In this document: positions 25,425 to 64,000 of the stretch, one piece after another | Layout: each line of letters starts with the position of its first letter | How positions within the stretch are numbered: the first letter of the stretch is position 1 | Assembly (NCBI GenBank): GCA_009779845.1 | Contig: WRBE01000005.1 | Span: 880-64,879, forward strand | Reading direction: 5' to 3' | DNA: 64,000 nt | From: Oscillospiraceae bacterium | GTDB taxonomy: Bacteria > Bacillota > Clostridia > Oscillospirales > Oscillospiraceae | Notes under the pieces: generated by a model | Databases searched by the model: none | Seen by the model: only the letters and a program-made list of their open reading frames with translations | What the model was told of the DNA's origin: nothing | Made by a program: the position numbers and the translations under genes

Positions 25425-28400
25425 TTATTCCGACTGGATACGAATATACTTCCAGCTAATATCCCCTTCCCCATCTCTGGACAAGTAGTGGTCGTTCGCC
25501 GCACCCAGTACGGAGGCGAAGAACCAGTTGGTCACCGCTACGTCTGGGAAGGTCGCAGCACGCGCTTCCACATGCAACACTTCGTCCACTTCTGCTAGGT
25601 TCGCATTGCTGTCAATCCGGCCTAACATCCGGTTCACCGCTGTCGCGACCTCTGCACGCATGATGTTCTCTACCGGGCGGAAGTTGTTGTGTGTGTCACC
25701 AATCATCCAGCCTTGGCGGAATGCATTGTACACATAGACAGGTGCCCAGCTGCTGATGGTGCCGGCATCCGGGAAGTCCATCGTCGGGCCGACTGCTGTC
25801 GCTCTGTCCTCAACATCTAATGTACGCACCAGCATTGCAGCCAGTTGCTCACGGGTGATGAGCGCATTCGGGGCAAACCTGCCGCCGCCTACGCCTTGTA
25901 CCAACCCTTCGTGATAGGCCCATGCTACATAGTGGTAGAACCAGTTGTCTGGGGCTACGTCGCTAAACTCGCCAAAGCTATCCATGCCTTCTGGCAATTC
26001 ATAGTCGTCGGAGTGTACACTTGAGTCAAACTCGTCTATCATCGTACGGGCCAGTATCGCCGCTACTTGCGCACGGGTGATGTTGGCCGTCGGGTCGAAG
26101 TGGAGAACGTCGTTTCTCAACACCCCGACCATGTACGCTTCGTGGAATTCGCGTAACCCTTCCATCGCTGTCCGGAGGGCCGCTGTCGCCGCATCTACCT
26201 GCGCTTGTGTGGCGGTTGGATCATCATAGACCGCTTGTGCTGCATCCCGTGCTGCTACAAACGCCGCCCAGCTTGCATCTGAGTAGATGCCTTGCTCTTC
26301 TCGCTCTGCCGCATCCGCTAACGTGTCACGCAGAGCGTCACGGTTGACTTCCGATGGGTCTATGGGCTCTAGACCATCAATCGCATCCCGCAGGTCGGCA
26401 TATGCTTCATCAATCTCGCCTTGCGTTGTTGCGTTCGCCAGCGCATCTCGCGCCGCCGCTAGGGCTTCTTGCAGGTCTGCCCAAGTTTCCGGTGTGAAGT
26501 CCGCAGCGTTGCGTGCTTCTGCATCTGCTATTGCCGCATTCAGCTCCGCCCGGTTCAGTTGCTCACCAGGAATTCTTGCTGTCAGCGCACCCATCGCATT
26601 GTTCAGCGCAGTAACTGCATCATCCACTTGCTGTTGCGTGACACCGTCACGGTTGGCTAACATGTTTGCCGCCGCTGTGCGGGCCGCTGCAAACGGGCCC
26701 CATGTGGCTGGCGTGTAATTCGCCTCGTCACGCAGATTTGCAATTGCATTTGCAATCATGAGTTCGGTAAAGTCCGTCACCGGGCCTGGTGTTCGTGTTA
26801 CCAGCGCCTCAATCGCATCACGCAAATCTTCGTAGGCTTCATTGATCTCGCTTTGCGTTGTTGCGTTTTCCAGTGCGTACTCTGCTGCCGCCAAGGCATC
26901 TTGCAGGTCGGCCCAAGTTTCCGGTGTGAAGTCCGCTTCATTGAGCGTTTCTTCCGCATACTCGATCAGGTCTTCTAGGTCTTCTGTGTTGCGCTCTGTC
27001 TCTTCCCAAATTGCGTAGAGTGTCACGTCCTCTGTGTTGTGGGTGTGGAAGCGAGACAGTGCAAACGGTGCCGCCGGGAGGCCCGGTCTTGCCGGGGATG
27101 GCTCTGGCGTGAAGGACCAACCGAGGAATGTATACCCAGTCCGGGTCGGATTCTCAATCTCTTCTCTGTCAATGGCCCAACCGTAACGAACCACAAGGCT
27201 CTCGGTGCCGGCTTCGCCGCCGTTGGGGTTGAATGTAATGGTCGCAGTCGAATCCGCCAAGAACGCCACTACCTCCGGTCTCGCTAAGAAGGCATCCGGG
27301 TCAATAACTGCCCAGAAGGCAAGCTTCGGTTGATAGTACGTGTCAAACAATAGTGGCATCCCATTGGCTCTCCAACCGTGGTCATCTTCACGGCCCCAGA
27401 AGGTGGCGGCTTCGATGATATCGGCATGTGCGCGGTAAACCTGGAAGAGCTGTGCGTACAAGACCGCTTGGTTCATCTCTTGTGTCGGTGTCAGACGGCG
27501 GCCGTTGTGCTGATTATAGTAGGTACCCTGCACAAGGTCCAACTCTGTGACTGCCAAACGGGGTGTGATGCGGTTTGTAACCCCTGCAAAACGTGCCGCA
27601 TTGGCCGGTTGTGCCGCCAGATAATCGAAGTAGTCGGATGTGTTCTCAAACGCCTCAACAAATACGTCAATGGACGCTTGCACGTCGGCGGGATCAATCC
27701 AGCCGGTCCAGAAGTGAGACTGCATCCCGATGACATCAATCAGCGGACGGCCCGGGTCAGTGTTCCGGGGATCCATAATCCAGCGGTTGTTGAACTCTTC
27801 TACCATCATGGCGATGGAGTAGCGCTTCGGTGCGACCTCTTCGTTGAAGTCGTTGTAGTAGGACAGCACATCCCCACGTCCGTTTGCAATCAAGGCGAGA
27901 CGTGTGAACACAAATGCGTCATAGATGTAGTCAGCCGGGCATTCTGGGCGTTCTCCATTCGGGCCCGGCGTGTTGTACGCACGGAGCCATCTGCTACCGC
28001 TACCGCCAGTGCCGCCGTTACCGACACCACCAGAGACGATATCCCAGCTACGAAGACCTTGGCGCCAATCGCCGGTTTCACGGGGGTCAATCCCTTCGCC
28101 GTCTGTGTTGTACCAGAATACTTCATTGAGAACATCCCATGCCATGACGGAATCAGCAAAGCGTTCTACTACTGTGTTGATGTACAGCTCCATTCTTTCT
28201 TTTGCTTGTACATAATTTCCAACTCCACTGCCCGGCATCGGCCATGCCGGTGACTGGCTGTGCCAGACCAGCGTGTGACCGTGCAAGCCAAGGTTGTTTG
28301 CTTCTGCCCAAGCTTCAATTTGCCCTGCGCCGCCAGTTGCCGGGAATGGTTCCGCAGGCGGACCGCCCCAACCTTGTGGCTTCATGGCATTTTCCGCCGT

Positions 28401-31400
28401 GACCTGATCATAATGGAATACAAAATGGTCTCTCAAGTACCCGTGGGGGTCACCTGTAGCGGAAATCTGTGCAGGCTCCACGATGCTGCCGATTGGGAAG
28501 TAGTCTGCATAAGTTTCCCGCAGTGACGGCAAGTCGGATGGATGCAGCGTCCAAAGCTCAGTCCGATGGTCAACACGACCCAAGTTGTGCTGGTCACGGG
28601 TGATGCGAACATCGTCTACATACCAAATGAGCGGCATGTTTGTTGCCGTGCTGCCGGCGAAGCGGAAGTCGAAGAAGTTGATGGGCCCTTCTACAAACTG
28701 GGGCCGGATATCAACAACAAACTCGACCCACTCACCCATGGGAATCCAGTGGTAACTCGCACTTACAGTGGGACGCCCTGCGCCGCCTTGTCCGCCGCCG
28801 CCGGAACCATTGGGGGTAACGATGGGATGAATCACGGTGTTTGCGCCGCCTCTCGGTGTGGAGCGGTTCGGGTTACCGTCAATGGGGACGTAAACCATGG
28901 CACGGAACTCATAGGTGTACCCTGCCGATAGCGGGAATGGCGGCGTGATACGCACAGTGTTCTGCGCCTGTGTCCAGTTGGCGGGAAGCCCTTCTCTGTC
29001 AACACGAAGGACGTAGTTGTCGTCATACCCACGGTCTGGGCCGCTGACCCAGTTTACGTTGGGCGGTGCCGCCGTACCCGCTACAGGGCCGGGGTTAAAC
29101 ATGTCGATAAACCCTTCCCGGTCGCCCGGTGCGAAGGTCACTTCAATCGGGAATCCGGTACTTGCCCACATGGCATAGAACGTGGTAGGCCCTTGGTGGA
29201 AGCCGATGGCGTTGCCGAAGTTCCAGCCGTTGTTGGCGGCACTGTTCATCACAATGGCACCCGCCTCGTTGCGGAAGCCCCAGCCGCGGAAGACAAACCC
29301 ATCTCGTGTTGGATTGGCCACACCTGTGGCCCCGGCTGTACCGGGCTGAAACCCGCCGGAGTTCGCCAGCACCGGCGCGATTGCCGTCCCCCACAGAACC
29401 TCTCTGGCTACGTGGACAGCATCTGTGCCGTCGTTTCGCATAAACCGCACATCGAATGTGTTGTCAGCTAAGAAGCCTGTCGGGTCTAAGAACGCATCAA
29501 AGGCCAGCTTCGGCTGTTGGAAGTAGTCGAACAGAACCGGCATACCTTGGTGCCGCCAGTGGAGATTGTCGGAAACGCCCCACAAGGTAACACGGGTAAT
29601 ATAGTCTGCGTGTTCTCTATACAGCTCCATGAGTCGGGCATAGAAGATGGCTTGCTGCATCTCTTCCAGCGGGGTCAGCAGTTGGGATTCCGCCTGTACA
29701 CGGCCCCATGTGCCGCCGCCCCAGCTGCCCCAGTTGCCGATGGGTGCGTCTAGTTCGGTAACGGATGTGTATACGCCTGCTGTGCGGGCATAACGTAGGA
29801 TGGCAGTCTCGACAGCAGCCAAACTATCGTGGCCGATAGCCGGTGCGCCGCCGGTCATAAGCCCTGTTGTCGGGTTGGGACGACCGGCCCAGAAGTGGCC
29901 TTGCATCCCTATCACTTCAATGAGCGGACGGGCGACATTGGTATTTCTGGGGTCTGCCGCCCAGCGATTGTTGAGCTCAAGCACCATCTGTGAGGTGACA
30001 ATCGTTCTGGTATTGTTAATTTCGTTGTAGTCATTGTAGTACAAGATTGCATCCGGGTCGGCTAGGCGTGTGAATACAAACGCATCATAGATGTAATCAC
30101 TTGGGTGTAGCGGACGACCATCTACATTTGCCGGTGCGCCTGCTGCATTGGTGTTGTATGCGACTTGCCACGGAGACCAGTCGCGCAATCCGCCTTGCCA
30201 CCAGTTGGGGCCGACAGCGTCAAAGTTGAGAACACCAGGGGGTTGACCAGCGGTTATGCTGGCCGGTACGGTGAAGCCACCGGGGGGATTCACAACCTCA
30301 TTTACCACATCCCATGCCGCAACACGACCTGCTGTGTGGCCCACGAAGTCACGGATGAAGATTTCCATGTTTCGTTGCGCCTCTGCACGGGTCAGCGGTG
30401 AGCCGTCTTCGTTCTGGTTGAGCCACCACGGGGATTGGCCAGAGTGCCAGACCAGTGTGTGGGCCTGAACCGGAATGTCATTGTCATCGGCCCAGTCTAA
30501 GAACTCGTCAATGGCGTCAAAGTCGGCGATGAGATATCCATCGTCACAGATGCCGAAGGCGTGATAGCCCGGCTTCATCACATTTTCAGGTGTGACAAAG
30601 TTAAAGTGGTGGGTGAACATGTCGGTAAACTCATCGCCTAGTTGGAATGGCTCGGCAATGTTACCAATGGGGAAATAATCCTCCCAAGCCTCCGCCAAGG
30701 ACGGTACCGCCAATGCGGCAGACCAGCCAGCGGACGGAACGGTGGATGGAACGGTCAGGTCACTTAAATCAATGACTTCTTCTACCAGCTCGACACGGAT
30801 GTTATCCAGATGCCACACTGCCGGGATCAGTCTTGCGCCACCCGGAGGCGGTGCGTCCCCACCGGGAGCAGTATTGGTGTGGAAGCGAATGTCCATCATG
30901 TAAATGGTCTCTAAGGTGAATCTTCTCATCTCACCGTCTACTAAGCCCATACCCGGTGTATGCAGGGTATAGGTAACCCATCTGCCTTGGGGTGTGGACG
31001 CTGTGCTATTGGGGCCTAAGAACTCTGTCCCAACAGTTCCCACTGGGTTCACCAGCGGCCAGCTAAATCGGTTGGCTTGGAACTCGTTGAAGTTCACGCC
31101 GGGCAAGGAGAAGGTCACACCCGGTGTGGTGGGGATAAAGATATCAAACGAAATCTCATACAGGTTACCAGCCGGCAACGGCGTGTCAAAGGTAAGCCGT
31201 ACAGAGTTCTCCGCCGGGTCTCGGCGCAGTCTGTGCTGGCTCGGCAGTGTGTTGGTAACCCGGAGGAAATGGTTGTCGCCGGAGCCGTTGCCAACAGCCT
31301 GCTCAATTCTCACGTCGGCACCCGGTGACAGCATCTCTTGATGATGCTCCCAGTTGCCCGGTCTGAAGTGGATGTATAGCGGCAACGGACGCTCGTCAAT

Positions 31401-34400
31401 GGAAGTCCATTGTGCGTACAGGTTCATATCACCTGTCACGTTCGTGCCGAAACGGAAGGGTTGGTTCCCGGCACGGTCTCTCGCCCAGCCGTCCAACCGA
31501 TATCCGGCCGGTGCGGCGGGAACGGGGTAAGGTGCATATGCAGTGCTGTTGACCAACACGGTCTGGGTTGTATGGATCGTGTTGTCATCTGCGTTGTGGT
31601 TCCGCATAAAGGTGACTTCTGCGGTCTGTGGGATATCCTGCACCAAGATTTGGAAGGTTCTCGTAGTCACAACGTTTACATGGGGCGTTCCCGCTCTGAC
31701 TGTGACTGTGAAGTTGCCGATCTGTGTCGGTGTCCCGCTGATGAGACCGTCTTCGCTAATTGTAAGGCCGGTGCCTGCCAGCGTATGAGAGACGACCTCT
31801 ATCGGAACTTGGTTCGTCCACGGGCGTGCCGCCGGGCGGAAGATTGGATGGGTCACGCCGAGTTGCAGCGAAAACGCTTGGTCGATGTTTGCAGTATGAA
31901 CCGTAGCAACCGGTGTAATCTCCGGCGCTTGCTGTGCTTCTTCTGCTACTGCCAGTACTTCAAAGAAGTTCGGTTGCGGATTATATGCTGCGTTGAAGGC
32001 AACCGGAGGTGGTGTCGGTCTCCAAGAGTGGATGTCCGCTTTCCCCCAGTTAATGACTGCGTCAATGTAGTCTGCAAACTCAAGGTAGAGGGACGTGAGG
32101 TTTCTCCACTGCTGTGCTTGTATCGCACGGCCAGACGCGAGATCTGCGTTGGGCGGGTTACCGAAGTCGCCGCCGTTACCGTCCCACTCTGTTACCGCAA
32201 GGCGAATCCCAAGGGAAGAGTACAGCTCTAGCGCTCTTCTCATGGGGGTAAATTGACCCAAAATTGTACCTGGTGCCATCGTGCCAACGTGTTGTTGCAG
32301 GCCGAACGCTTCGATGAGCAAGCGATAGCCGGCTTCGATGTACTCTTCCAGAGTCAGGGTCGAGTCAGCTTGCGGGTTGTTGGCATAGTCAGCCGCCCAG
32401 CGCTCATTGACGCCCCAAATCATGTTGGCGATAACACGTCTCTTCCCGATTTGCTGTTCGTTGTAGTCGTTGTAGAAGAGCATGGCTTCCGGGAAATAGT
32501 ACCGTGCGTATACGTAAGAATAGTATACAAAGTCAGACTCGTGCCAATCTTCTTGACCCGGTACCGCAGGGTCAAAGTTTGAGAAGGCATGACGCCATTT
32601 CGATTGGGCATCCGGGTTTGTTGCGGTGGAAGCACGAAGGCTGTTTCTCCAATCACCCGGTCTCCAGTCTGCTGGATTCATATCTGTTCCGTTTGCGGTT
32701 GCACCCGCCAGTGTGGTGGCCACGATTTCATTGATAACGTCCCAAGAGGCGAAGATATCGGCACCGGGTCCGCCTGCGGCGATACCAAACTCTGGGTGGT
32801 TGTTGTAATGCTCGGCAACCGTCCTAAACCACCAGCGGAGGTTTGCGTCTGCTTGGTAACGTTCAAGCACTGTACCGTCTTGGTTGTGGGTCAACCAACG
32901 GGGTGACTGACTGTGCCATTGGAGGGTATGTCCATGTAGCGTCATATCGTGCTCAATCGCAAAGCGAACCACCCGGTCAGAACGCTCAAACACGATGGAC
33001 TCTGTGACACCCGAACGGTAATAGCCGGCACCCGGGAACGGAACATCAGAGCCGGGGCCAACAGTAGCCAGTTCGTCCGGCTTATGCCAGTTCTCTGCGG
33101 TCATAATGCTGTATTGATGTGTAAAGAATTCTGTTGTGTTGCCGCGCATCATCTGCCAAGATACACAGTAGATGTTGCCCCATTGCCAGAACGGCGCAAA
33201 CGCCTCGTCCAATGACGGCAGAGACATATCCCAGTGCGGGAGAGAAAGCGGGGCCGCAATGGTGGGATTCCAGTATTCAATCTCAATGTTGCGGATACGG
33301 AAATGTTCTGGTTGTGTATCACCTGAGAAGACAAAGTCAATGGTTTCCACATGGTTGGAAAGAGGCGCTCTGCTCCTCGTGGGCAATGTGATGCTCACCG
33401 GAACCCACTCGCCGGCAGGAATTTGCCAAAGCTCGGCATATGCCGGGTGCGGCAAATCCGGGAGGATAAATGCGTTGAAGGTCGGCTGTTGGTTATGGAA
33501 GTCAATAGTCTCCATCGGCGCACCAGTGTGGCGGTTGGTTGCAATGACTTCACGGTTCAACAGTACCTGCGGCATCGGCGCATAGTCCCGCACGATGTTT
33601 GCACTGCCGACAGGGTTCGCCCGCGGCACAAAAATTTCGTAGTTTAGCTGCCACGTCGTGCCCAGCGTGAGCGGCTCCGGTAAAGTCAGGCGGACGCCTG
33701 CGCCTTCTAAGGCAACCGGTGCCGAATACGCATCTGCGGCAACAGGGGCCGGAACAGCGTTGGGGTCAATAGACGCTTCAATTACGTTGTTTGCATTCCG
33801 CACCACCGTAGCACCCGCCGGATTGGTCGGGCCAAAGTATGCGTTATGCTCTATGATATTTTGGTCGTCCGTGTTTGGACGCTCGAACTCAGCAAAGGTC
33901 ATGTGAGACGTCGGTGTCCACCGAGAAAGCGGGGACGCTGCTGCCGGGACGTTGTGAGACAGCGTAACATTATCCACGATGAACTCTACATGTTGCCCGG
34001 CAAGGGTGGTCCAGATGCGGGCGTGCATCCGGTCATATGCTTGGAATGCTGTGAGGTTGCCTGAAACAGAGAACGGAACCTCTGCGCCCACTACATTTGT
34101 TGCCGGGATTCCCGTCGAACCGGAGATAGAGGACGACTGCTGTGACCAGTTGGGGTTGATGCCGTCCATCTGCATCACCGTACCCGGGGGAATCGGCCCA
34201 ATTGCACGGCCTGTGAATGTCACGGTGTAGGTGTATGCAGGCGGTTGCCCTGCACCGCCTTGGATGGGCGAGGTATGTTGTAGCCGCAGCGGACGCAGGC
34301 GAAGGTCAAGCCCTGCATAACGCACGTTACGGTTAGAGACACGAATCGAGTTTATACCATTGTGTTCTTCGACTGTAAGCACCGTGGACGCAATGGGTGA

Positions 34401-35762
34401 CGTTGTCAGGTATGTCGGGGTACCGCCACCGAATAACGGGGCACCGTCAACGGTGTAACCAAACACTTCGTCTCCTGCGATTTGTGTGCCGTCTAACAAC
34501 TCTTGTACTTCAGCATCATGTTGCATAGAGTAAAGTACGTTGGCTGGCAGATGACCAAGGGGAACCATCACCGCTTGCACTGCGCTCAACGGGCCATCCC
34601 GGTGTGTGGGCGGCTCGGCAGTGTTAATCGGGCGAATCCAAATATTATGGGTTTGCGGCTCTTCCGCTGTCCCGGCCAGATCTAAGTCCTGCGCAAAGAA
34701 ATACGTGTCCGGCGCATGTACAATCGCCGGTGTGCCGTCTGCCCAGTCCGCTGGTTCGGGGCCGTCTGCGCCGGTTAGATAGATTCGGTATGCGCCTGCA
34801 CCCTCTACTTCATTCCAGCTCATGCGGCCTTGATAGCTGCCCACGGGTGCAAATTGAATATTTGTCATTGCGCCCAAGCGGGGGAAAAACGTACCGCCGC
34901 CGTCTAGGGTGATTTGGCCGAAGCTCTCGGTGGTATTCCAGTTGTTATCAGCAGGGTCGCCCCAACCGAATACCGCACGGTTTCCACCGCCTGCGCCTGC
35001 TTGACCGTTAATAGAGATGTCAAACCCGATCAGCAGATCGTCTTCCAGCGTCACGTTTTGGTTCGGGCGGAACGGAACCGCTACTGTTACAACAGCATTC
35101 CCTTGCGAGTCCACTTGGCTGAAGGATTGCTGCACATTTCTACGTGCCGCATTGTTCCAAGCAAATCCGGCATTTGCCGCCGTTATGCTGCCGAATCCAT
35201 CGCCAGAGATTGCGCCGAGAACGTTAACACGAAACTGTGCGCCAGCCGCTGTGTTCCCACTGCCACGGCCGCCACGATGGTTGGTTTCACTCAACCAAAT
35301 TTCGACACAGTCTTGCTCGTGTGCGTTTCCTGTCGTAATCCAGCCATCCATACCGGCACCGCTGCCAGCGGTTCTGATCCACTCAACACGCACGTAGAGA
35401 TTATTGTCATCCCAGAGCACCCGTGCAGAAGCGGCACTGACGTGTGCATCGCCATCGTGTTGCGGTGCCCGGCGCTGTGCAACGGGGAATGATGCTGCCG
35501 TTTGCCACAGCGGATGGTTGTTGTCAAGGAACCCATTGCCGCCGCCGAGAACGAAAGCCTCATCATTCACATGCATTGCAAATGCGTGGGGCAGGGCTGG
35601 ATTGATCCCCAGTGGTAGAAGCCCAATGGTTTCATTGGGCAACTCCGCTTCTACCTCTAGCGGTGCCTCTGCCTCTGTTGCAAGGCCGGGGCTTACTAGA
35701 GAAAGTGCCATAATCACTGCAAGAAGCAAACATAAAGCTCGTTTGAAAGATTTTGAATGCAT
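25425..35762 (-). CDS. Giant cell-surface multidomain endo-1,4-beta-xylanase: three GH10 catalytic domains, CBM-like modules, Listeria-Bacteroides-type repeats, helical repeats, C-terminal SLH anchor
   Basis: 3445-aa ORF with SD AGGAGGG upstream and signal peptide MHSKSFKRALCLLLAVIMALSLVSPGLATEA. Three sets of GH10 hallmark motifs are present: WDVINE/VTEWD, WDVVNE/VTELD and WDVLNE/VTELD. The C-terminal SLH-like repeats include FSDVAPDNWFYHYVAWAYHEGLVQG and FPDAGTISSWAPVYV. Confidence 0.9.
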   Translation of the reverse strand: MHSKSFKRALCLLLAVIMALSLVSPGLATEAEAPLEVEAELPNETIGLLPLGINPALPHAFAMHVNDEAFVLGGGNGFLDNNHPLWQTAASFPVAQRRAPQHDGDAHVSAASARVLWDDNNLYVRVEWIRTAGSGAGMDGWITTGNAHEQDCVEIWLSETNHRGGRGSGNTAAGAQFRVNVLGAISGDGFGSITAANAGFAWNNAARRNVQQSFSQVDSQGNAVVTVAVPFRPNQNVTLEDDLLIGFDISINGQAGAGGGNRAVFGWGDPADNNWNTTESFGQITLDGGGTFFPRLGAMTNIQFAPVGSYQGRMSWNEVEGAGAYRIYLTGADGPEPADWADGTPAIVHAPDTYFFAQDLDLAGTAEEPQTHNIWIRPINTAEPPTHRDGPLSAVQAVMVPLGHLPANVLYSMQHDAEVQELLDGTQIAGDEVFGYTVDGAPLFGGGTPTYLTTSPIASTVLTVEEHNGINSIRVSNRNVRYAGLDLRLRPLRLQHTSPIQGGAGQPPAYTYTVTFTGRAIGPIPPGTVMQMDGINPNWSQQSSSISGSTGIPATNVVGAEVPFSVSGNLTAFQAYDRMHARIWTTLAGQHVEFIVDNVTLSHNVPAAASPLSRWTPTSHMTFAEFERPNTDDQNIIEHNAYFGPTNPAGATVVRNANNVIEASIDPNAVPAPVAADAYSAPVALEGAGVRLTLPEPLTLGTTWQLNYEIFVPRANPVGSANIVRDYAPMPQVLLNREVIATNRHTGAPMETIDFHNQQPTFNAFILPDLPHPAYAELWQIPAGEWVPVSITLPTRSRAPLSNHVETIDFVFSGDTQPEHFRIRNIEIEYWNPTIAAPLSLPHWDMSLPSLDEAFAPFWQWGNIYCVSWQMMRGNTTEFFTHQYSIMTAENWHKPDELATVGPGSDVPFPGAGYYRSGVTESIVFERSDRVVRFAIEHDMTLHGHTLQWHSQSPRWLTHNQDGTVLERYQADANLRWWFRTVAEHYNNHPEFGIAAGGPGADIFASWDVINEIVATTLAGATANGTDMNPADWRPGDWRNSLRASTATNPDAQSKWRHAFSNFDPAVPGQEDWHESDFVYYSYVYARYYFPEAMLFYNDYNEQQIGKRRVIANMIWGVNERWAADYANNPQADSTLTLEEYIEAGYRLLIEAFGLQQHVGTMAPGTILGQFTPMRRALELYSSLGIRLAVTEWDGNGGDFGNPPNADLASGRAIQAQQWRNLTSLYLEFADYIDAVINWGKADIHSWRPTPPPVAFNAAYNPQPNFFEVLAVAEEAQQAPEITPVATVHTANIDQAFSLQLGVTHPIFRPAARPWTNQVPIEVVSHTLAGTGLTISEDGLISGTPTQIGNFTVTVRAGTPHVNVVTTRTFQILVQDIPQTAEVTFMRNHNADDNTIHTTQTVLVNSTAYAPYPVPAAPAGYRLDGWARDRAGNQPFRFGTNVTGDMNLYAQWTSIDERPLPLYIHFRPGNWEHHQEMLSPGADVRIEQAVGNGSGDNHFLRVTNTLPSQHRLRRDPAENSVRLTFDTPLPAGNLYEISFDIFIPTTPGVTFSLPGVNFNEFQANRFSWPLVNPVGTVGTEFLGPNSTASTPQGRWVTYTLHTPGMGLVDGEMRRFTLETIYMMDIRFHTNTAPGGDAPPPGGARLIPAVWHLDNIRVELVEEVIDLSDLTVPSTVPSAGWSAALAVPSLAEAWEDYFPIGNIAEPFQLGDEFTDMFTHHFNFVTPENVMKPGYHAFGICDDGYLIADFDAIDEFLDWADDNDIPVQAHTLVWHSGQSPWWLNQNEDGSPLTRAEAQRNMEIFIRDFVGHTAGRVAAWDVVNEVVNPPGGFTVPASITAGQPPGVLNFDAVGPNWWQGGLRDWSPWQVAYNTNAAGAPANVDGRPLHPSDYIYDAFVFTRLADPDAILYYNDYNEINNTRTIVTSQMVLELNNRWAADPRNTNVARPLIEVIGMQGHFWAGRPNPTTGLMTGGAPAIGHDSLAAVETAILRYARTAGVYTSVTELDAPIGNWGSWGGGTWGRVQAESQLLTPLEEMQQAIFYARLMELYREHADYITRVTLWGVSDNLHWRHQGMPVLFDYFQQPKLAFDAFLDPTGFLADNTFDVRFMRNDGTDAVHVAREVLWGTAIAPVLANSGGFQPGTAGATGVANPTRDGFVFRGWGFRNEAGAIVMNSAANNGWNFGNAIGFHQGPTTFYAMWASTGFPIEVTFAPGDREGFIDMFNPGPVAGTAAPPNVNWVSGPDRGYDDNYVLRVDREGLPANWTQAQNTVRITPPFPLSAGYTYEFRAMVYVPIDGNPNRSTPRGGANTVIHPIVTPNGSGGGGQGGAGRPTVSASYHWIPMGEWVEFVVDIRPQFVEGPINFFDFRFAGSTATNMPLIWYVDDVRITRDQHNLGRVDHRTELWTLHPSDLPSLRETYADYFPIGSIVEPAQISATGDPHGYLRDHFVFHYDQVTAENAMKPQGWGGPPAEPFPATGGAGQIEAWAEANNLGLHGHTLVWHSQSPAWPMPGSGVGNYVQAKERMELYINTVVERFADSVMAWDVLNEVFWYNTDGEGIDPRETGDWRQGLRSWDIVSGGVGNGGTGGSGSRWLRAYNTPGPNGERPECPADYIYDAFVFTRLALIANGRGDVLSYYNDFNEEVAPKRYSIAMMVEEFNNRWIMDPRNTDPGRPLIDVIGMQSHFWTGWIDPADVQASIDVFVEAFENTSDYFDYLAAQPANAARFAGVTNRITPRLAVTELDLVQGTYYNQHNGRRLTPTQEMNQAVLYAQLFQVYRAHADIIEAATFWGREDDHGWRANGMPLLFDTYYQPKLAFWAVIDPDAFLARPEVVAFLADSTATITFNPNGGEAGTESLVVRYGWAIDREEIENPTRTGYTFLGWSFTPEPSPARPGLPAAPFALSRFHTHNTEDVTLYAIWEETERNTEDLEDLIEYAEETLNEADFTPETWADLQDALAAAEYALENATTQSEINEAYEDLRDAIEALVTRTPGPVTDFTELMIANAIANLRDEANYTPATWGPFAAARTAAANMLANRDGVTQQQVDDAVTALNNAMGALTARIPGEQLNRAELNAAIADAEARNAADFTPETWADLQEALAAARDALANATTQGEIDEAYADLRDAIDGLEPIDPSEVNRDALRDTLADAAEREEQGIYSDASWAAFVAARDAAQAVYDDPTATQAQVDAATAALRTAMEGLREFHEAYMVGVLRNDVLHFDPTANITRAQVAAILARTMIDEFDSSVHSDDYELPEGMDSFGEFSDVAPDNWFYHYVAWAYHEGLVQGVGGGRFAPNALITREQLAAMLVRTLDVEDRATAVGPTMDFPDAGTISSWAPVYVYNAFRQGWMIGDTHNNFRPVENIMRAEVATAVNRMLGRIDSNANLAEVDEVLHVEARAATFPDVAVTNWFFASVLGAANDHYLSRDGEGDISWKYIRIQSE
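25428..26153 (-). other. C-terminal SLH (S-layer homology) repeat region of the xylanase
   Basis: The last 242 aa hold three to four SLH-like repeats. Examples: ...ITRAQVAAILARTM; FSDVAPDNWFYHYVAWAYHEGLVQG...ITREQLAAMLVR; FPDAGTISSWAPVYVYNAFRQGWMIGD...IMRAEVATAVNRML; FPDVAVTNWFFASVLGA. Confidence 0.75.
27285..28533 (-). other. GH10 catalytic domain 3 (approximate bounds)
   Basis: TAENAMKPQ, HGHTLVWHSQSPAWP, WDVLNE (about 28116-28143), YYNDFNE, GMQSHFW and VTELD (about 27528-27552). Confidence 0.8.
29470..30712 (-). other. GH10 catalytic domain 2 (approximate bounds)
   Basis: TPENVMKPG, AHTLVWHSGQSPWWL, WDVVNE (about 30297-30317), YYNDYNE, GMQGHFW and VTELD (about 29739-29760). Confidence 0.8.
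31960..33225 (-). other. GH10 catalytic domain 1 (approximate bounds)
   Basis: TAENWHKPDE, HGHTLQWHSQSPRWL, acid/base motif WDVINE (about 32721-32744), YNDYNE, and nucleophile motif VTEWD (about 32172-32195). Confidence 0.75.
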
Positions 35763-60555: not shown

Positions 60556-61614
60556 ATGCGACGTATTATACCCATCTCCCTACTTGCATTACTCTTGGCC
60601 ATACTGTTGCCGCTGTTTTTGGTCTACATGCCGGAACCTCCTGAGCCAGAGGAGGTGCCCGCTGAACCCGCGGCAGAGCCTGTAGCCCAGCCCGCACCTG
60701 AGCCAGAACCGCCGGAACCGGAGGCCGCCCCATTGCCCGACGGGTCATTAGATGCAGGATTTACACTTTCGGTTTTGTTCGGGGATGAAATTCGTGAAAT
60801 GACCATGGCGGACTTTCTGCAAGGGGTGGTGGCCGCCGAGATGCCCGCTTTGTTCCACGAAGAGGCTCTCAAAGCCCAAGCCGTAGCGGCCCGAACGTAT
60901 ACCCTCCACCGCAAGTTGGTGACCCCCACCCCACGGCACCCGGAGGCGGATGTGTGCGGTGATTACGCCTGCTGTCAGGCTTACGCCAGCGTGGACAGGC
61001 TACAAGAACGTTGGGGCGAGGACTTTGACTATTACCGTGCTCGCATTGCCATGGCCGTCCAAGCGACCGATGGTCAGGTATTACTCTACGATGACCAGCC
61101 CATCTTGGCCGCCTTCCACGCCGCCTCTTACGGCTATACAGAGGCCAGCGGGGCCATCTGGGGCGCAGTCCCCTATCTCCAAAGCGTCCCCTCTCACGAG
61201 GGGGCCGACCAAGTGCCGCGGTTTTATTATGATGTAGAGATAACTTTCTCCCGGTTTCGAGAGACCGTTCTCTCCCACCACCCGGAGGCTGTGCTGGACG
61301 ATGACAATATCCCCTACTGGATATCAAACATCGTGTACACGGACTCTGGGCGGTTGGACAGCCTCACCATCGGCGGGGTACTCGTACAAGGGGCAAGGTT
61401 CCGACAGATGTTTTCTCTGCGCTCGACAGCGATTCGGTTCTCCTTTTCCGATACGGGGATGACCATCACCACCGGCGGCCACGGCCACGGGGTGGGCATG
61501 AGCCAGTTCGGCGCAAACACCATGGCCACGGCCGGGTATCGTTATCGAGAGATTTTGGATTGGTATTACACGGGCGTTGTGTGGTCTGATGTTTCTGAGT
61601 TGGTTTTGCCGTAG
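60556..61614 (+). CDS. spoIID: Stage II sporulation protein D (SpoIID/LytB domain)
   Basis: 352 aa. An N-terminal anchor is followed by a Pro/Glu-rich linker and then the SpoIID motifs VVAAEMPALFHEEALKAQAVAARTY, CQAY and GHGVGMSQFGA. Confidence 0.85.
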   Translation: MRRIIPISLLALLLAILLPLFLVYMPEPPEPEEVPAEPAAEPVAQPAPEPEPPEPEAAPLPDGSLDAGFTLSVLFGDEIREMTMADFLQGVVAAEMPALFHEEALKAQAVAARTYTLHRKLVTPTPRHPEADVCGDYACCQAYASVDRLQERWGEDFDYYRARIAMAVQATDGQVLLYDDQPILAAFHAASYGYTEASGAIWGAVPYLQSVPSHEGADQVPRFYYDVEITFSRFRETVLSHHPEAVLDDDNIPYWISNIVYTDSGRLDSLTIGGVLVQGARFRQMFSLRSTAIRFSFSDTGMTITTGGHGHGVGMSQFGANTMATAGYRYREILDWYYTGVVWSDVSELVLP

Positions 61615-61702
61615 GGGACGATGGCAATCGTCCCGCAAATCACGAACGGATTGCTATTAGTGGCAATTTTTTGAAATTTGTCTAATTTTGTTGGTTTTTT
61701 CC

Positions 61703-61731
61703 TTGACATTGCACATATACGCAGATACAAT
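61703..61731 (+). promoter_or_regulatory. Strong sigma-A-type promoter with no CDS downstream
   Basis: TTGACA (61703-61708), a 17-nt spacer, then TACAAT (61726-61731). Confidence 0.5.
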
Positions 61732-61737
61732 TAGTCC

Positions 61738-61803
61738 CAAATACTTGCAATTGCAAAACCCAAGGCGGGAAACCTAGTGCCCACCTTGGGTTTGTCGTTT
61801 TTT
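61738..61803 (+). ncRNA. Candidate ~65-nt small RNA (promoter-to-terminator mini transcription unit)
   Basis: The predicted +1 is near 61738. A 14-bp stem, AAACCCAAGGCGGG (61756-61769) / CCCACCTTGGGTTT (61780-61793), has one mismatch and is followed by GTCGTTTTTT. No ORF with an SD is present. Confidence 0.35.
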
Positions 61804-61840
61804 CCCATGTCAAAATCCGTACCCACCTTGTCAACAGGAG

Positions 61841-61891
61841 TTCCCATAAAATATATATAAGGTCTTGTGACATAAAAAGTCACAAGACCTT
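61841..61891 (-). terminator. Hairpin terminator downstream of the AT-rich islet genes
   Basis: AAGGTCTTGTGAC / GTCACAAGACCTT, a perfect 13-bp stem (61859-61891). On the minus strand it is followed by TATATATATTTTAT. Confidence 0.5.
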
Positions 61892-61963
61892 GATTGCAAA
61901 AAATAGGGTGGTAGGTATCGTAACGAAATTGGATACCCACGTATGAGGGGGGCTATTTTTGTG

Positions 61964-62245
61964 CTACTGTACTTTTGCCATTTCAAACCCATAGCGGATA
62001 TCGGGGGTGTCGTTTAGAATTTTAGCAACAATTATTTCCCCCTTCTTTAACACATCAGCGATATCATTAATATAACGATTGCTAATTTTGCTAATATGAA
62101 TCTGTGCGGCCTCTTTGTGATCAATTATTTCAACATATGCAAATGATCTCCCCCAACCAAACACCTTACATTTGAATTCGTTGCCTCTTTTTAATTCTAA
62201 TAGTTCTCTATTGACAATGATATCTTCTACACTAAATTTTATCAG
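61964..62245 (-). CDS. S1 RNA-binding domain ORF without a canonical full-length start (probably the detached C-terminus of the AIPR gene)
   Basis: The frame is open from 62245. Translation: ...SVEDIIVNRELLELKRGNEFKCKVFGWGRSFAYVEIIDHKEAAQIHISKISNRYINDIADVLKKGEIIVAKILNDTPD... This matches the S1/OB pattern (G-x-V...AFV...G-x-IHISEIS...V-x-D-x-x-DVLK-x-G-x-x-V-x-VKVL). The only in-frame start (GTG 62164) would cut off the first beta-strand. Confidence 0.55.
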   Translation of the reverse strand: MIKFSVEDIIVNRELLELKRGNEFKCKVFGWGRSFAYVEIIDHKEAAQIHISKISNRYINDIADVLKKGEIIVAKILNDTPDIRYGFEMAKVQ

Positions 62246-63479
62246 TTAAGCGGGACAGATGGTTACCGCCTATGAATGGGCTTTCATATGTTTTAGCTAC
62301 ACTATCAATCACATTTATGGCATTTTTGATTAATAGTTCAAACTCCGCTGTTTCTTTAAGGTGCTCATAAAGTTTTTGACATAGTGCCTTCATCTCCCTA
62401 CTGTTAGCTTTTGGAATTTCATTACCAGATACCATCACTCTGCAGAGTAGTGCAATGTGGTATTTATACGATAACCTATAGTTGCGGTCATAACCATTAT
62501 CTCTCAAATATTTATCAATAAAAAACGCATACATTGAGGCTATGCAATATTGCTCTTTAATGTCCTCATCTTGATAGATTTTTGTTTTATTGGATTTTAA
62601 AAGTTCACCGTAATATCTATGTGTACTTTGTGGCTGCCCCAAAAACATTGCCACATATGCAGCTGTCTGTGACGGGAATGAAACCACTTTGTTTTGGCTG
62701 ACATTTTGAAAGTCATACTGTTTAGAGCGACGCTCATAAAAGAGCCTGTGCTGTACGCCATAACTTCCATATACCGTTTCAAGGTCTTTGTGAAAGTCTT
62801 TTAATGTCTCAAACGCTTCATCAACGATTAGTGTCTGACTATTTGTAGTTTTAACAATGGAGTCAATCACACCTTTGTCAGTTGAGGAAATTAATTTAAC
62901 CGCAACATAAGAGTCATCACTCAGTTTTTTCCGGTTTTCATAAAGCACAAAGCTAGTTTGACATCCATTAACAATTTGAAAATCTTCAATCACAAAATTA
63001 TCGCCTGTGCGGCGAATTTCTTTCGCAATTATTGTTATTCCATTATTAAGTAGTGCAAATGCTTGTTGTTGCTGTGGGTCTGCAATAGTTCCAAACATTT
63101 CACTATTCACTTTGTTACGACCTTGATAATATCTCACATTGTCTTCAAAAAGATGTGTGAGCAAAAGTCCATCATTATTTGTAATAAGCTCAACATAATC
63201 TTTGCATTTGACCGTGCCAATAAACGATTCTATAACATTGTCAATAGAAGGGAGTGTTGAATAGTTCTTGATAGGTACTGTCTTTTTTATGCTTCTCTTT
63301 ATCGAACGGCACGCATCCGTAATTTTTGTAGAATCATAAACATTACATTTTACTTCATCGAAAACTCCTTTCCCTTCAATTTCCTTTCTAAATGTTTCAA
63401 ACGTATTTTCTGCCATGCTCACATTAAACATTCTTCCAGTATAGGCAAAAACAATGTGACAATCTGGATTCTTGGACAA
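62232..63479 (-). CDS. AIPR-family abortive-infection protein, central/C-terminal part (frame-broken gene)
   Basis: 415-aa ORF containing LLNNGITIIAKEI...FQIVNGCQTSFVLY, which I recognise as the AIPR (abortive infection phage resistance) core motif. It starts only at a TTG directly after the upstream fragment. Confidence 0.65.
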   Translation of the reverse strand: MSKNPDCHIVFAYTGRMFNVSMAENTFETFRKEIEGKGVFDEVKCNVYDSTKITDACRSIKRSIKKTVPIKNYSTLPSIDNVIESFIGTVKCKDYVELITNNDGLLLTHLFEDNVRYYQGRNKVNSEMFGTIADPQQQQAFALLNNGITIIAKEIRRTGDNFVIEDFQIVNGCQTSFVLYENRKKLSDDSYVAVKLISSTDKGVIDSIVKTTNSQTLIVDEAFETLKDFHKDLETVYGSYGVQHRLFYERRSKQYDFQNVSQNKVVSFPSQTAAYVAMFLGQPQSTHRYYGELLKSNKTKIYQDEDIKEQYCIASMYAFFIDKYLRDNGYDRNYRLSYKYHIALLCRVMVSGNEIPKANSREMKALCQKLYEHLKETAEFELLIKNAINVIDSVAKTYESPFIGGNHLSRLTDKI

Positions 63480-63493
63480 ATGGGTAGGATGTC

Positions 63494-63925
63494 CTAAAAT
63501 ATATTTATATATTTTTGAAATTCAATATATCTTTCGTTTGTTTCATTTATCTTGCCGTCTCCAATGAAATCAAGCACAGATGTACAGAAGTGAGAAAGTT
63601 CATTTAATTCAAATTTTTCACTGGTTTTTGCCTGCGTAAATATAATAGATACAGAGATGTCAACATGCTTATTCCCATTTTCGTCAACAAAAAAACTTTC
63701 TATTCCGTGTGAATCAGATACTAATATCCCATTAACAAAAATTCCTATACCATCAAGCCCTACCTCACCCTTCCCTAAAGATGCCTCGGCAGGGTCAAAA
63801 GTTTTTGATGAATATTCGCGCAAAGCGATATAATTTACTAGATGCTCGAATTTCTGTGAATCGTCAGGGTTGAGTTCAAACCTTGTTGCATGTTCGTCAA
63901 GAAAAGGCTTAATAACACTATTCAT
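63494..63925 (-). CDS. AIPR-family abortive-infection protein, N-terminal part (frame-broken gene)
   Basis: Start moved to the ATG at 63925 (SD AGGAGG 6 nt upstream). It contains GEVGLDGIGIFVNG and VSIIFTQAKTS segments, as in AIPR N-terminal regions. The stop at 63494 overlaps the open upstream part of the next frame. Confidence 0.6.
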   Translation of the reverse strand: MNSVIKPFLDEHATRFELNPDDSQKFEHLVNYIALREYSSKTFDPAEASLGKGEVGLDGIGIFVNGILVSDSHGIESFFVDENGNKHVDISVSIIFTQAKTSEKFELNELSHFCTSVLDFIGDGKINETNERYIEFQKYINIF

Positions 63926-64000
63926 ATCCATCCTCCTATTTAATTGAACATCTATGAGCAAGTAATAAAAACATAAGTTCAAATCCATATACTACGGCCA

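What the first reader, a model, noticed from the sequence alone, without database searches (positions are those of the whole stretch)
61964..63925. AIPR abortive-infection gene split at homopolymer runs; repaired, it reads as an AIPR-S1 RNA-binding-domain fusion
Three consecutive minus-strand ORFs are involved. They are an N-terminal AIPR-like part (63925..63494), the AIPR core with NNGITIIAKE...QIVNGCQTSF (63479..62232), and an S1-domain ORF open from 62245 that has no usable start.

At both junctions the two frames overlap in a short window containing a homopolymer. These are T5 on the plus strand at 63512-63516 (both frames open 63497-63521) and T4 at 62237-62240 (the AIPR frame stops at 62234-62232, and the S1 frame is open from 62245). 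One-nucleotide corrections would give ...ERYIEFQK-IYKYILGHPTHLSKNPDCHIVFAYTG... and ...LSRLTDK-FSVEDIIVNRELLELKRGNEFKCKVFGWGRSFAYVEI... The result would be a single protein of about 650 aa.

I do not know of a described AIPR protein carrying a C-terminal S1/OB RNA-binding domain. Such a fusion would suggest that this Abi system senses or acts on RNA. The alternatives are a decaying pseudogene, homopolymer sequencing errors, or slippage-based phase variation.
Basis: partly seen in the sequence, partly recalled or inferred. Interest (0 to 1): 0.7.

Follow-up and report, generated by a model that had tools for sequence, protein, structure and literature searches.

The report
Broken AbiU-type phage-defence gene with S1 tail
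This is a recently inactivated copy of a one-gene phage-defence protein (AbiU/AIPR type) that normally ends in an S1 nucleic-acid-binding domain; that fused layout is common in intact form in other gut Firmicutes, so this locus is a dead member of a little-described but widespread subfamily.

Summary
Three consecutive minus-strand ORFs (63925..63494, 63521/63479..62232, 62245..61964) are pieces of one gene. Repaired, it gives 653 aa with Pfam AIPR (E 8e-41), PADLOC AbiU (E 4e-110) and a C-terminal S1 domain (above the Pfam cut-off; the S1 fold was confirmed on a homologue model).

The fusion is not unique. More than 100 intact homologues of 650-660 aa cover the whole repaired protein. All 74 tested match AIPR and 58 match S1. 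They sit as stand-alone genes, mostly in Clostridia.

Junction 2 is not a T4 slip. Against the three closest intact genes the window lacks 26 nt of the conserved linker (26 aa against 35 in the eight closest relatives).

A Logan and an ENA assembly are 100% identical to the window across both lesions. Housekeeping genes in the window, including a 3445-aa ORF, are intact. Conserved residues are otherwise kept.

Verdict: a young pseudogene in a roughly 2.4-kb AT-rich islet of an Oscillospiraceae MAG. Phase variation and programmed frameshifting are not supported. Sequencing error is unlikely. I found no paper describing the S1-tailed AbiU subfamily, and its function is untested.

The parts
63494..63925 (-). 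Fragment 1: N-terminal domain of the AbiU/AIPR-S1 protein. It comprises residues 1-138, then 5 out-of-frame codons and TAG. NCBI annotates it as a 143-aa hypothetical protein (MCL2842141).
   Evidence: It aligns without gaps to the N-termini of intact homologues. H12, E27, N31, D58, G59, F96 and Q98 are invariant, and K100 is at least 90% conserved.
63932..63937 (-). AGGAGG ribosome-binding site 6 nt upstream of the ATG at 63925.
   Evidence: Read directly from the sequence.
63512..63516 (-). Lesion 1: an A5 run (T5 on the plus strand). One A is missing relative to the CAAAAAAT (A6) found in two of the three closest intact genes. It shifts the reading frame after K138.
   Evidence: The DNA alignment shows a single 1-nt gap at this run, beside C63517. 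The protein alignment is gap-free across ...EFQK|IYKYILGHPTHLSKNPDCH.
62232..63521 (-). Fragment 2: the central part, repaired residues 139-563, including the AIPR core. The frame is open from 63521. The first start codons are TTG 63479, ATG 63431 and ATG 63416. NCBI annotates it as a 394-aa 'AIPR family protein' (MCL2842140).
62349..63149 (-). Pfam AIPR (PF10592) match, repaired residues 260-526. It carries the invariant motifs FEDNVR, LNNG.T and Q(I/V)(V/I)NGCQTS.
   Evidence: 141 bits against a cut-off of 25.
62232..62248 (-). Lesion 2: the site of a 26-nt deletion in the linker between the helical region and S1. The A4/T4 run at 62237-62240 lies inside it. It shifts the frame back to that of fragment 1.
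   Evidence: There is one 26-nt gap against three intact genes, and all other gaps are multiples of 3. The linker is 26 aa against 35 in the 8 closest homologues and 31-36 in 116 homologues.
61964..62245 (-). Fragment 3: the remainder of the linker plus the S1 domain and the stop codon. There is no start codon before the GTG at 62164, which lies inside the domain.
62012..62191 (-). S1 (PF00575) match, repaired residues 579-638.
   Evidence: 27.8 bits alone, 23.8 in the full protein, cut-off 22. (profile hits to Rrp5, bS1, GSP13 and PNPase). (the homologue model superposes on S1 folds at about 2 A).
61859..61891 (-). Terminator-like hairpin with a 13-bp stem and a T-rich tail, 73 nt downstream of the stop codon.
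61700..64000 (.). AT-rich islet (about 35% G+C against about 57% in the flanks) that holds only this gene. It continues about 100-200 nt past the window end.
   Evidence: (L092 positions 1-217 lie beyond window position 64000, and G+C rises again in the first ~100 nt).

Best explanation
The locus is a recently inactivated pseudogene of a stand-alone, single-gene AbiU/AIPR-type anti-phage protein. It belongs to a subfamily that carries a C-terminal S1 (OB-fold) nucleic-acid-binding domain. The gene sits alone in a roughly 2.4-kb AT-rich, horizontally acquired islet next to spoIID in an Oscillospiraceae MAG.

Two real mutations broke it. One is a 1-nt deletion in an A6 run, which truncates the N-terminal domain after residue 138. 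The other is a 26-nt deletion in the linker before S1. Together they remove 27 nt, which is why the S1 part is back in the frame of the N-terminus. No fragment is likely to work. Fragment 1 is cut within the N-terminal region, inside a predicted helix. Fragment 2 lacks both end domains. Fragment 3 has no usable start.

For the intact family, the following mechanism is inferred, not shown. The conserved N-terminal domain (D58...Q98-x-K100) would be a PD-(D/E)xK-like nuclease effector, as the literature assumes for AbiU-1. The AIPR core is the ParB-superfamily module. The S1 tail would bind single-stranded RNA or DNA made during infection and so recruit or trigger the effector. That would fit the delayed phage transcription reported for lactococcal AbiU.
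For: Family assignment:
- The S1 fold was confirmed on an AlphaFold model of the intact homologue P0003 (pLDDT 86.5; Foldseek probability 1.0, rmsd about 2 A to GSP13, bS1 and eIF2alpha).
- More than 100 intact 650-660-aa homologues cover 100% of the repaired protein. All 74 tested match AIPR and 58 match S1.

The lesions:
- The DNA alignment with the three closest intact genes shows exactly two gaps that are not multiples of 3: 1 nt in the A run and 26 nt in the linker.
- The linker is 26 aa against 35 in the eight closest homologues, and the minimum among 116 is 31.

The lesions are real:
- ENA (MEGAHIT-style k141) and Logan (SRR5215140) contigs are 100% identical to the window over 11.8 kb and 2.1 kb, including both lesions.
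- Longer runs in the gene (A7 and three 6-mers) are intact.
- Other overlapping ORF pairs in the window are separate intact genes, and a 3445-aa ORF is unbroken.

The inactivation is recent:
- There are no internal stops.
- 98 of 103 columns that are at least 95% conserved are kept. Four of the five differences are also seen in intact homologues (2-5 each).

Stand-alone mobile gene:
- Homologues lie between unrelated housekeeping genes, next to a GAPS4 gene, or next to an integrase.
- The islet is 35% G+C against 57% in the flanks.

Literature:
- AbiU1/AIPR contains a ParB-superfamily nuclease domain fused to other nuclease domains (PMC3632139).
- AbiU delays phage transcription, and the AbiUi model resembles FokI (PMC13064643).
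- AbiU-1 is filed under PD-(D/E)XK (PMC13099982; bioRxiv 10.1101/2024.10.26.620412).
Against: - I could not inspect raw reads. The three assemblies probably derive from the same read set, so they exclude assembler artefacts but not a systematic error in the data.
- The exact form of lesion 2 depends on the alignment. It could be one 26-nt deletion, or a 27-nt in-frame deletion plus a 1-nt insertion.
- The otherwise pristine sequence is also what an intact gene with artefactual indels would look like.
- The nuclease assignment for the N-terminal domain was not confirmed here. Foldseek on the 143-aa fragment found nothing significant.
- No experiment links S1 to sensing.
Confidence: 0.8

Rival explanations
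1. Both breaks are sequencing or assembly errors and the gene is intact in the organism.
For: The source is a metagenome-assembled genome. One break lies in a homopolymer. The gene shows no other decay. The AT-rich islet is richer in A/T runs than the rest of the window, with 46 of the 1082 runs of 4 or more nt in 3% of the sequence.
Against: The second break is a 26-nt gap, which is not a homopolymer-type error. Three different assemblies give the identical sequence, and the k141 MEGAHIT-style contig name implies accurate short reads. The longest runs in the gene (A7 and 6-mers) are intact. No housekeeping gene in 64 kb is frameshifted.
Confidence: 0.08
2. The gene is switched on and off by slippage (phase variation), or is read through by programmed ribosomal frameshifting (-1 at C-AAA-AAU, +1 at AAA-AUU-UAG).
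For: Both junctions contain short A runs on which tRNA-Lys could re-pair. The two shifts cancel, because the lesions total 27 nt.
Against: The runs of 5 and 4 nt are far shorter than known contingency tracts. There is no canonical X-XXY-YYZ heptamer in frame and no stimulatory element was seen. None of the 116 full-length homologues is split, so the frameshifts are not conserved. A product made by read-through would still lack 9 linker residues. All assemblies are identical.
Confidence: 0.03
3. The pieces have become separate working genes, for example a truncated AIPR-core protein acting alone, as the public annotation implies (143-aa hypothetical protein plus 394-aa 'AIPR family protein').
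For: NCBI annotates two separate CDSs. AIPR proteins without S1 exist widely on plasmids, in phages and in other phyla.
Against: Those S1-less relatives still have the N-terminal domain, with matches starting at residues 1-50. The break at residue 138 lies inside a predicted helix (H130-144 in the model of P0003), within the N-terminal region. No convincing ribosome-binding site precedes the internal starts. The S1 piece has no start before a GTG inside the domain. No homologue shows this split.
Confidence: 0.06

Closest known systems
AbiU (AbiU1/AbiUi) of Lactococcus lactis; AIPR family (Pfam PF10592, COG1479); PADLOC/DefenseFinder 'AbiU'
   Same: The PADLOC AbiU model matches over 514 of its 537 positions (E 3.9e-110), and Pfam AIPR scores 141 bits. 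Both are single-gene, stand-alone defence-type genes on mobile or foreign DNA. They share the N-terminal domain and the AIPR core motifs.
   Different: The window's subfamily has an extra ~90-aa C-terminal linker and S1 domain that lie outside the AbiU model. Lactococcal and other plasmid or phage AIPR genes end at about residues 480-570 of the query and are only 24-35% identical. The window copy is broken.
Intact AIPR-S1 proteins of Clostridia, for example P0001 (685 aa, 69% identity, metagenome), P0003 (659 aa) and P0093, the NCBI 'S1 RNA-binding domain-containing protein' of Lacrimispora amygdalina (658 aa, 36%)
   Same: They have the same three-part layout over the full length and the same conserved motifs. 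They are also stand-alone genes.
   Different: They are single uninterrupted ORFs with a 31-36-aa linker. The window copy has a 1-nt and a 26-nt deletion.
DUF262/DndB/GmrSD-type ParB-superfamily defence modules (DGQQR/DGQHR motif)
   Same: [quoted passage not shown] The invariant Q-I-V-N-G-C-Q-T-S recalls the DGQQR/DGQHR motif; this comparison is my own reading.
   Different: No Pfam DUF262 or DndB match appeared at E up to 1. The partner domains differ: there is no DUF1524/HNH domain. The relationship was not tested further here.
MzaE, the AIPR-family protein of the MZA anti-phage system (NCBIfam NF041935)
   Same: There is a weak local match to the AIPR core, residues 258-405.
   Different: The score is 31 bits against a cut-off of 1050, and no Mza partner genes are present. 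It is not a member.

Membership tests
AIPR / AbiU (PF10592; PADLOC PDLC02357) | Match to the Pfam AIPR model above the gathering score | tested here: met
   141.2 bits against a cut-off of 25, residues 260-526 of the repaired protein. Fragment 2 alone is annotated as AIPR by NCBI.
AIPR / AbiU (PF10592; PADLOC PDLC02357) | Near full-length match to the AbiU defence-system model, including the N-terminal domain | tested here: met
   E 3.9e-110, residues 2-543 against model positions 3-514 of 537.
AIPR / AbiU (PF10592; PADLOC PDLC02357) | One uninterrupted ORF that can make the protein | tested here: not met
   Two frame-breaking deletions of 1 nt and 26 nt. The window copy is a pseudogene of this family.
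AIPR / AbiU (PF10592; PADLOC PDLC02357) | Confers phage resistance (abortive infection or delayed phage transcription) | not testable with these tools
   Known only for lactococcal AbiU (Dai et al. 2001, as cited in PMC13064643).
S1 RNA-binding domain (PF00575) | Match to the S1 model above the gathering score | tested here: met
   27.8 bits for the segment alone and 23.8 in the full protein, against a cut-off of 22. 58 of 74 intact homologues match at E up to 0.01, the best at 6.5e-10. The family profile hits Rrp5, bS1, GSP13 and PNPase in the PDB.
S1 RNA-binding domain (PF00575) | Five-stranded OB-fold barrel | tested here: met
   In the AlphaFold model of homologue P0003, strands 589-656 superpose on GSP13, bS1 and eIF2alpha S1 domains (Foldseek probability 1.0, rmsd 1.8-2.8 A over 71-80 residues). 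This was done on a homologue, not on the window fragment.
S1 RNA-binding domain (PF00575) | Binds single-stranded RNA or DNA | not testable with these tools
   The signature G-S-I-H-I-S-x-I and the aromatic SF(A/V)YV strand are conserved. Binding itself is not shown.
PD-(D/E)xK nuclease (N-terminal domain) | Restriction-endonuclease-like fold with a D...(D/E/Q)xK catalytic motif | tested here: inconclusive
   D58 and Q98 are invariant and K100 is at least 90% conserved. The literature files AbiU-1 under PD-(D/E)XK and likens the AbiUi model to FokI (PMC13099982, PMC13064643). Foldseek on the 143-aa window fragment gave no hit with E below 1.
Phase-variable contingency gene | Long simple-sequence tract in the ORF whose length varies between cells or strains | tested here: not met
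   The tracts are 5 and 4 nt. One lesion is a 26-nt deletion. The three assemblies are identical. Read-level variation could not be checked.
Programmed ribosomal frameshift gene | A frameshift site conserved among homologues, with a slippery motif | tested here: not met
   All 116 full-length homologues are single ORFs. There is no in-frame X-XXY-YYZ heptamer.
MZA system (MzaE) | Score above the NCBIfam cut-off and presence of Mza partner genes | tested here: not met
   31.3 bits against a cut-off of 1050. The gene stands alone.

The most novel reading that the evidence does not exclude
In intact members of this subfamily, the S1 tail would be the sensor or targeting module. It would bind phage RNA, or single-stranded DNA intermediates, and so direct or switch on the AbiU nuclease. 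That would give the first mechanistic handle on how AbiU/AIPR proteins recognise infection and why AbiU delays phage transcription. The window copy itself would remain a dead allele.
Probability: 0.3. Interest if true: 0.55.

Novelty: new variant of a known kind. Interest (0 to 1): 0.3.

Why it matters
For this genome the result is a small annotation correction. The two public CDSs (MCL2842140 and MCL2842141), plus an unannotated S1 remnant, are one dead defence gene. This illustrates how quickly costly abortive-infection genes are lost after transfer.

More broadly, the check shows that an AbiU/AIPR protein with a C-terminal S1 domain is a conserved and abundant layout in gut and rumen Firmicutes, and I found no paper that describes it. 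AbiU is one of the commonest defence calls in genome surveys, yet its trigger and target are unknown. A natural fusion to a single-strand nucleic-acid binder gives a cheap, testable hypothesis that should be pursued on intact homologues such as P0001, P0003 or the Lacrimispora amygdalina protein.

Tried and rejected
- Fold search of the window's N-terminal fragment gave no significant PDB match, so the nuclease assignment stays inferred.
- The whole-chain Foldseek search was dominated by the S1 domain and said nothing about the AIPR core. The PDB sequence-profile search also found only S1 proteins, so no solved AIPR structure was detected.
- An exhaustive phmmer search with the 90-aa S1 segment returned few specific hits. 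At 50% clustering the subfamily collapses to a few representatives (P0047, P0057 and fragments), and the rest are generic multi-S1 proteins. It was not useful for counting.
- A look-up of the exact NCBI product P0005 found no contig. The JGI/Logan gene calls P0121 and P0124 did.
- P0066, a 434-aa truncated relative, was checked as a possible second pseudogene. It lies at contig ends, so it is uninformative.
- The homopolymer statistic is suggestive with 2 lesions in 46 runs against at most 1 in 1036 (Fisher p = 0.005). It falls to p = 0.08 once only lesion 1 counts as homopolymer-type, so I do not rely on it.
- The genome-contig scan did not recover the window's own genome.
- Dai et al. 2001 is not in the held library.
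- A tRNA as insertion site was rejected because the window has none.
Full report
**1. The observation**

On the minus strand, frame 0 runs from ATG 63925 (preceded by AGGAGG at 63937-63932) to TAG at 63496-63494. A second frame is open from 63521 and stops at 62234-62232. The first frame is open again from 62245 and stops at 61966-61964. The third piece has no start codon before a GTG at 62164, inside the domain. The description is therefore accurate.

**2. What the pieces are**

This gives a 653-aa protein with these matches:
- Pfam AIPR: 141 bits, E 7.7e-41, residues 260-526.
- Pfam S1: 23.8 bits in the full protein and 27.8 bits for the segment alone, against a cut-off of 22, residues 579-638.
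- PADLOC AbiU model: residues 2-543, E 3.9e-110.
- NCBIfam: only S1-type families, plus a far sub-threshold MzaE match.

A profile of the family finds only S1 proteins among solved structures, namely Rrp5, bS1, GSP13 and PNPase. An AlphaFold model of the intact homologue P0003 has a mean pLDDT of 86.5. Its C-terminal barrel superposes on S1 domains at about 2 A with Foldseek probability 1.0. Both domain assignments hold.

**3. The fusion is the rule, not an oddity**

The protein search returned more than 100 clusters of intact proteins of 650-660 aa that cover 100% of the repaired query. The best is P0001 (69% identity, 1021 bits). The window's own fragment appears as P0005, 'MAG: AIPR family protein [Oscillospiraceae bacterium]'. 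All 74 full-length homologues scanned match AIPR, and 58 match Pfam S1 at E up to 0.01. One of them, P0093 from Lacrimispora amygdalina, is already named 'S1 RNA-binding domain-containing protein' at NCBI and UniRef.

In species-representative genomes, full-length matches that include the tail occur in:
- Papillibacter, Ruminococcus, Lachnospiraceae, Oscillospiraceae, Erysipelotrichaceae, Defluviitaleaceae, Desulfitobacterium and Cohnella;
- one Bifidobacteriaceae genome and one Melainabacteria MAG.

In most other phyla listed, relatives stop at about residues 523-560; a few extend to about 585-644. None of the 67 plasmid matches reaches past residue 569, and none of the 7 phage matches past residue 543.

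The homologues are stand-alone genes in unrelated neighbourhoods:
- between thrC and other housekeeping genes (L001, L002);
- between ABC-transporter and peptidase genes (L005, L006);
- beside a GAPS4 PDDEXK gene (L003);
- beside an integrase and a Y1 transposase (L090).

**4. The two lesions**

In the protein alignment, junction 1 is perfectly collinear. The window reads ...EFQK|IYKYILGHPTHLSKNPDCH against ...ELQKIFKYIQDNPTHLSKNPDCH in the homologue. Junction 2 is different. The segment between the invariant R559 and C586 is 26 aa in the repaired protein. It is 35 aa in each of the eight closest relatives and 31-36 aa in all 116 full-length homologues.

I aligned the gene's DNA with the three closest intact genes (L001, L089 and L090; 69-71% nt identity). 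Exactly two gaps are not multiples of three. One is a 1-nt gap in the A run, where two of the three homologues read CAAAAAAT. The other is a single 26-nt gap at about 62242. All remaining gaps are 3 or 6 nt. Lesion 2 is a 26-nt deletion that removes the conserved 'FTxxIxxxxG' part of the linker, and the T4 run there is incidental. The two lesions sum to 27 nt, which explains why the S1 part returns to the frame of the N-terminus.

**5. Real or artefact?**

The window comes from a MAG, with proteins MCL2842139-41 on a 65,078-bp contig. Two other assemblies carry the same gene calls: a Logan contig from run SRR5215140 (L091) and an ENA k141 contig (L092). They are 100% identical to the window over 2,137 and 11,769 nt, including both lesions. 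They probably share the same read set, so they rule out assembler artefacts rather than every data error.

Several further points argue against error:
- A 26-nt gap is not a homopolymer-type error.
- The longest runs in the gene (A7 and three 6-mers) are intact.
- Every other overlapping same-strand ORF pair I tested is a pair of complete, separate genes.
- A 3445-aa GH10/CBM9/SLH ORF is unbroken.
- The only other broken gene I found is a decayed IS3-like transposase, which is also foreign DNA.

**6. Age of the inactivation**

Within their proper frames the three fragments have no stop codons. Of the 103 alignment columns that are at least 95% conserved among 116 homologues, the window keeps 98. 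Four of the five differences also occur in 2-5 intact homologues each, and the fifth is the deleted T562. The inactivation is recent.

**7. Setting**

G+C is about 35% from roughly 61,700 to the window end, against about 57% in the flanks. L092 extends 217 nt past the window end and shows G+C rising again. The islet is therefore about 2.4 kb and holds only this gene. It lies downstream of spoIID (60556-61614, plus strand). A strong terminator-like hairpin sits at 61891-61859. The window has no tRNA.

**8. How it works**

This copy most likely does nothing. Fragment 1 ends inside a predicted helix, H130-144 in the P0003 model. Fragment 2 lacks both terminal domains. Fragment 3 lacks a start codon.

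For the intact family, the literature places AbiU1/AIPR/COG1479 in the ParB superfamily, fused to other nuclease domains and often linked to restriction-modification systems (PMC3632139, PMC3506569). It files AbiU-1 under PD-(D/E)XK nucleases (PMC13099982; bioRxiv 10.1101/2024.10.26.620412). It also reports that lactococcal AbiU delays phage transcription and that the AbiUi model resembles FokI (PMC13064643).

Here D58 and Q98 are invariant and K100 is nearly invariant in the N-terminal domain. A fold search of the window's 143-aa fragment found nothing significant, so the nuclease assignment remains an inference. The S1 signature (GSIHISxI and the aromatic strand) is conserved. My working model for intact members is that S1 binds single-stranded RNA or DNA produced during infection and recruits or activates the effector. 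This is not shown.

**9. Alternatives**

| Explanation | Estimated probability |
|---|---|
| Recent pseudogene (preferred) | about 0.80 |
| Sequencing or assembly error | about 0.08 |
| Pieces function as separate genes | about 0.06 |
| Phase variation or programmed frameshifting | about 0.03 |

The reasons are given in the rival explanations. In short, the tracts are too short, one lesion is a 26-nt deletion, no homologue is split, and all assemblies agree.

**10. Novelty and score**

The locus is a dead member of the AbiU/AIPR kind. The S1-tailed layout is abundant in databases and automatically annotated. I found no paper that mentions it: the searches 'AbiU' with 'S1 domain' and 'AIPR' with 'S1 RNA-binding' both returned nothing, within the limits of the held library. 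I rate it a new variant of a known kind, of modest interest (0.3). The useful lead is the intact subfamily, not this copy.

Noticed in passing
window 5960-7123 (+): A decayed, AT-rich IS3-like insertion sequence. The orfA-like reading frame is interrupted near an A7 run (about 6030). orfB is split between HTH_21 (ORF 6285-6791) and rve (ORF 6677-7123), and part of the usual W-V-T-D-I-T-Y-I motif appears to be missing at about 6680-6700. It is the only other broken gene I found in the window, and it is also foreign DNA.
   Followed up: partly
window 25425-35762 (-): An uninterrupted 3445-aa ORF with several GH10 xylanase domains plus CBM9, FIVAR, Listeria-Bacteroides repeat and SLH domains. It is a giant cell-surface xylanase, which suggests a fibre-degrading Oscillospiraceae. 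I used it here only as a control for sequence accuracy.
   Followed up: partly
L001 8001-10058 (ENA ERZ27257297, contig k141_1074002) and L002 (JGI 3300010162): The same ENA metagenome assembly that contains the broken gene (L092, contig k141_669456) also holds the closest intact homologue, P0001 (69% identity). It sits in a different organism's chromosome, between thrC and an unannotated 372-aa gene.
   Followed up: partly
L003 5728-9977 (Lacrimispora amygdalina QOHO01000031.1): The intact AIPR-S1 gene lies about 1.3 kb downstream of a PDDEXK_GAPS4 gene, with one 355-aa gene between them, and near several HTH regulators. This looks like a small defence island.
   Followed up: no
L090 715-5035: The intact homologue P0003 is followed by a tyrosine integrase and a Y1 (IS200-type) transposase. 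This hints at how the single-gene cassette moves.
   Followed up: no
window 61859-61891 (-), and L092 160-190 (just beyond the window end): Strong hairpins flank the islet. One is a 13-bp stem terminator downstream of the S1 remnant. The other is an AAAAATCCACC...GGTGGATTT hairpin about 100 nt upstream of the gene. Neither was examined as a possible insertion boundary.
   Followed up: no
window 63416-62232 and 63925-63494 (-): The public annotation (MCL2842140 'AIPR family protein', 394 aa; MCL2842141 'hypothetical protein', 143 aa) treats the fragments as separate genes and leaves the S1 remnant unannotated. The locus would be better annotated as a single pseudogene.
   Followed up: yes
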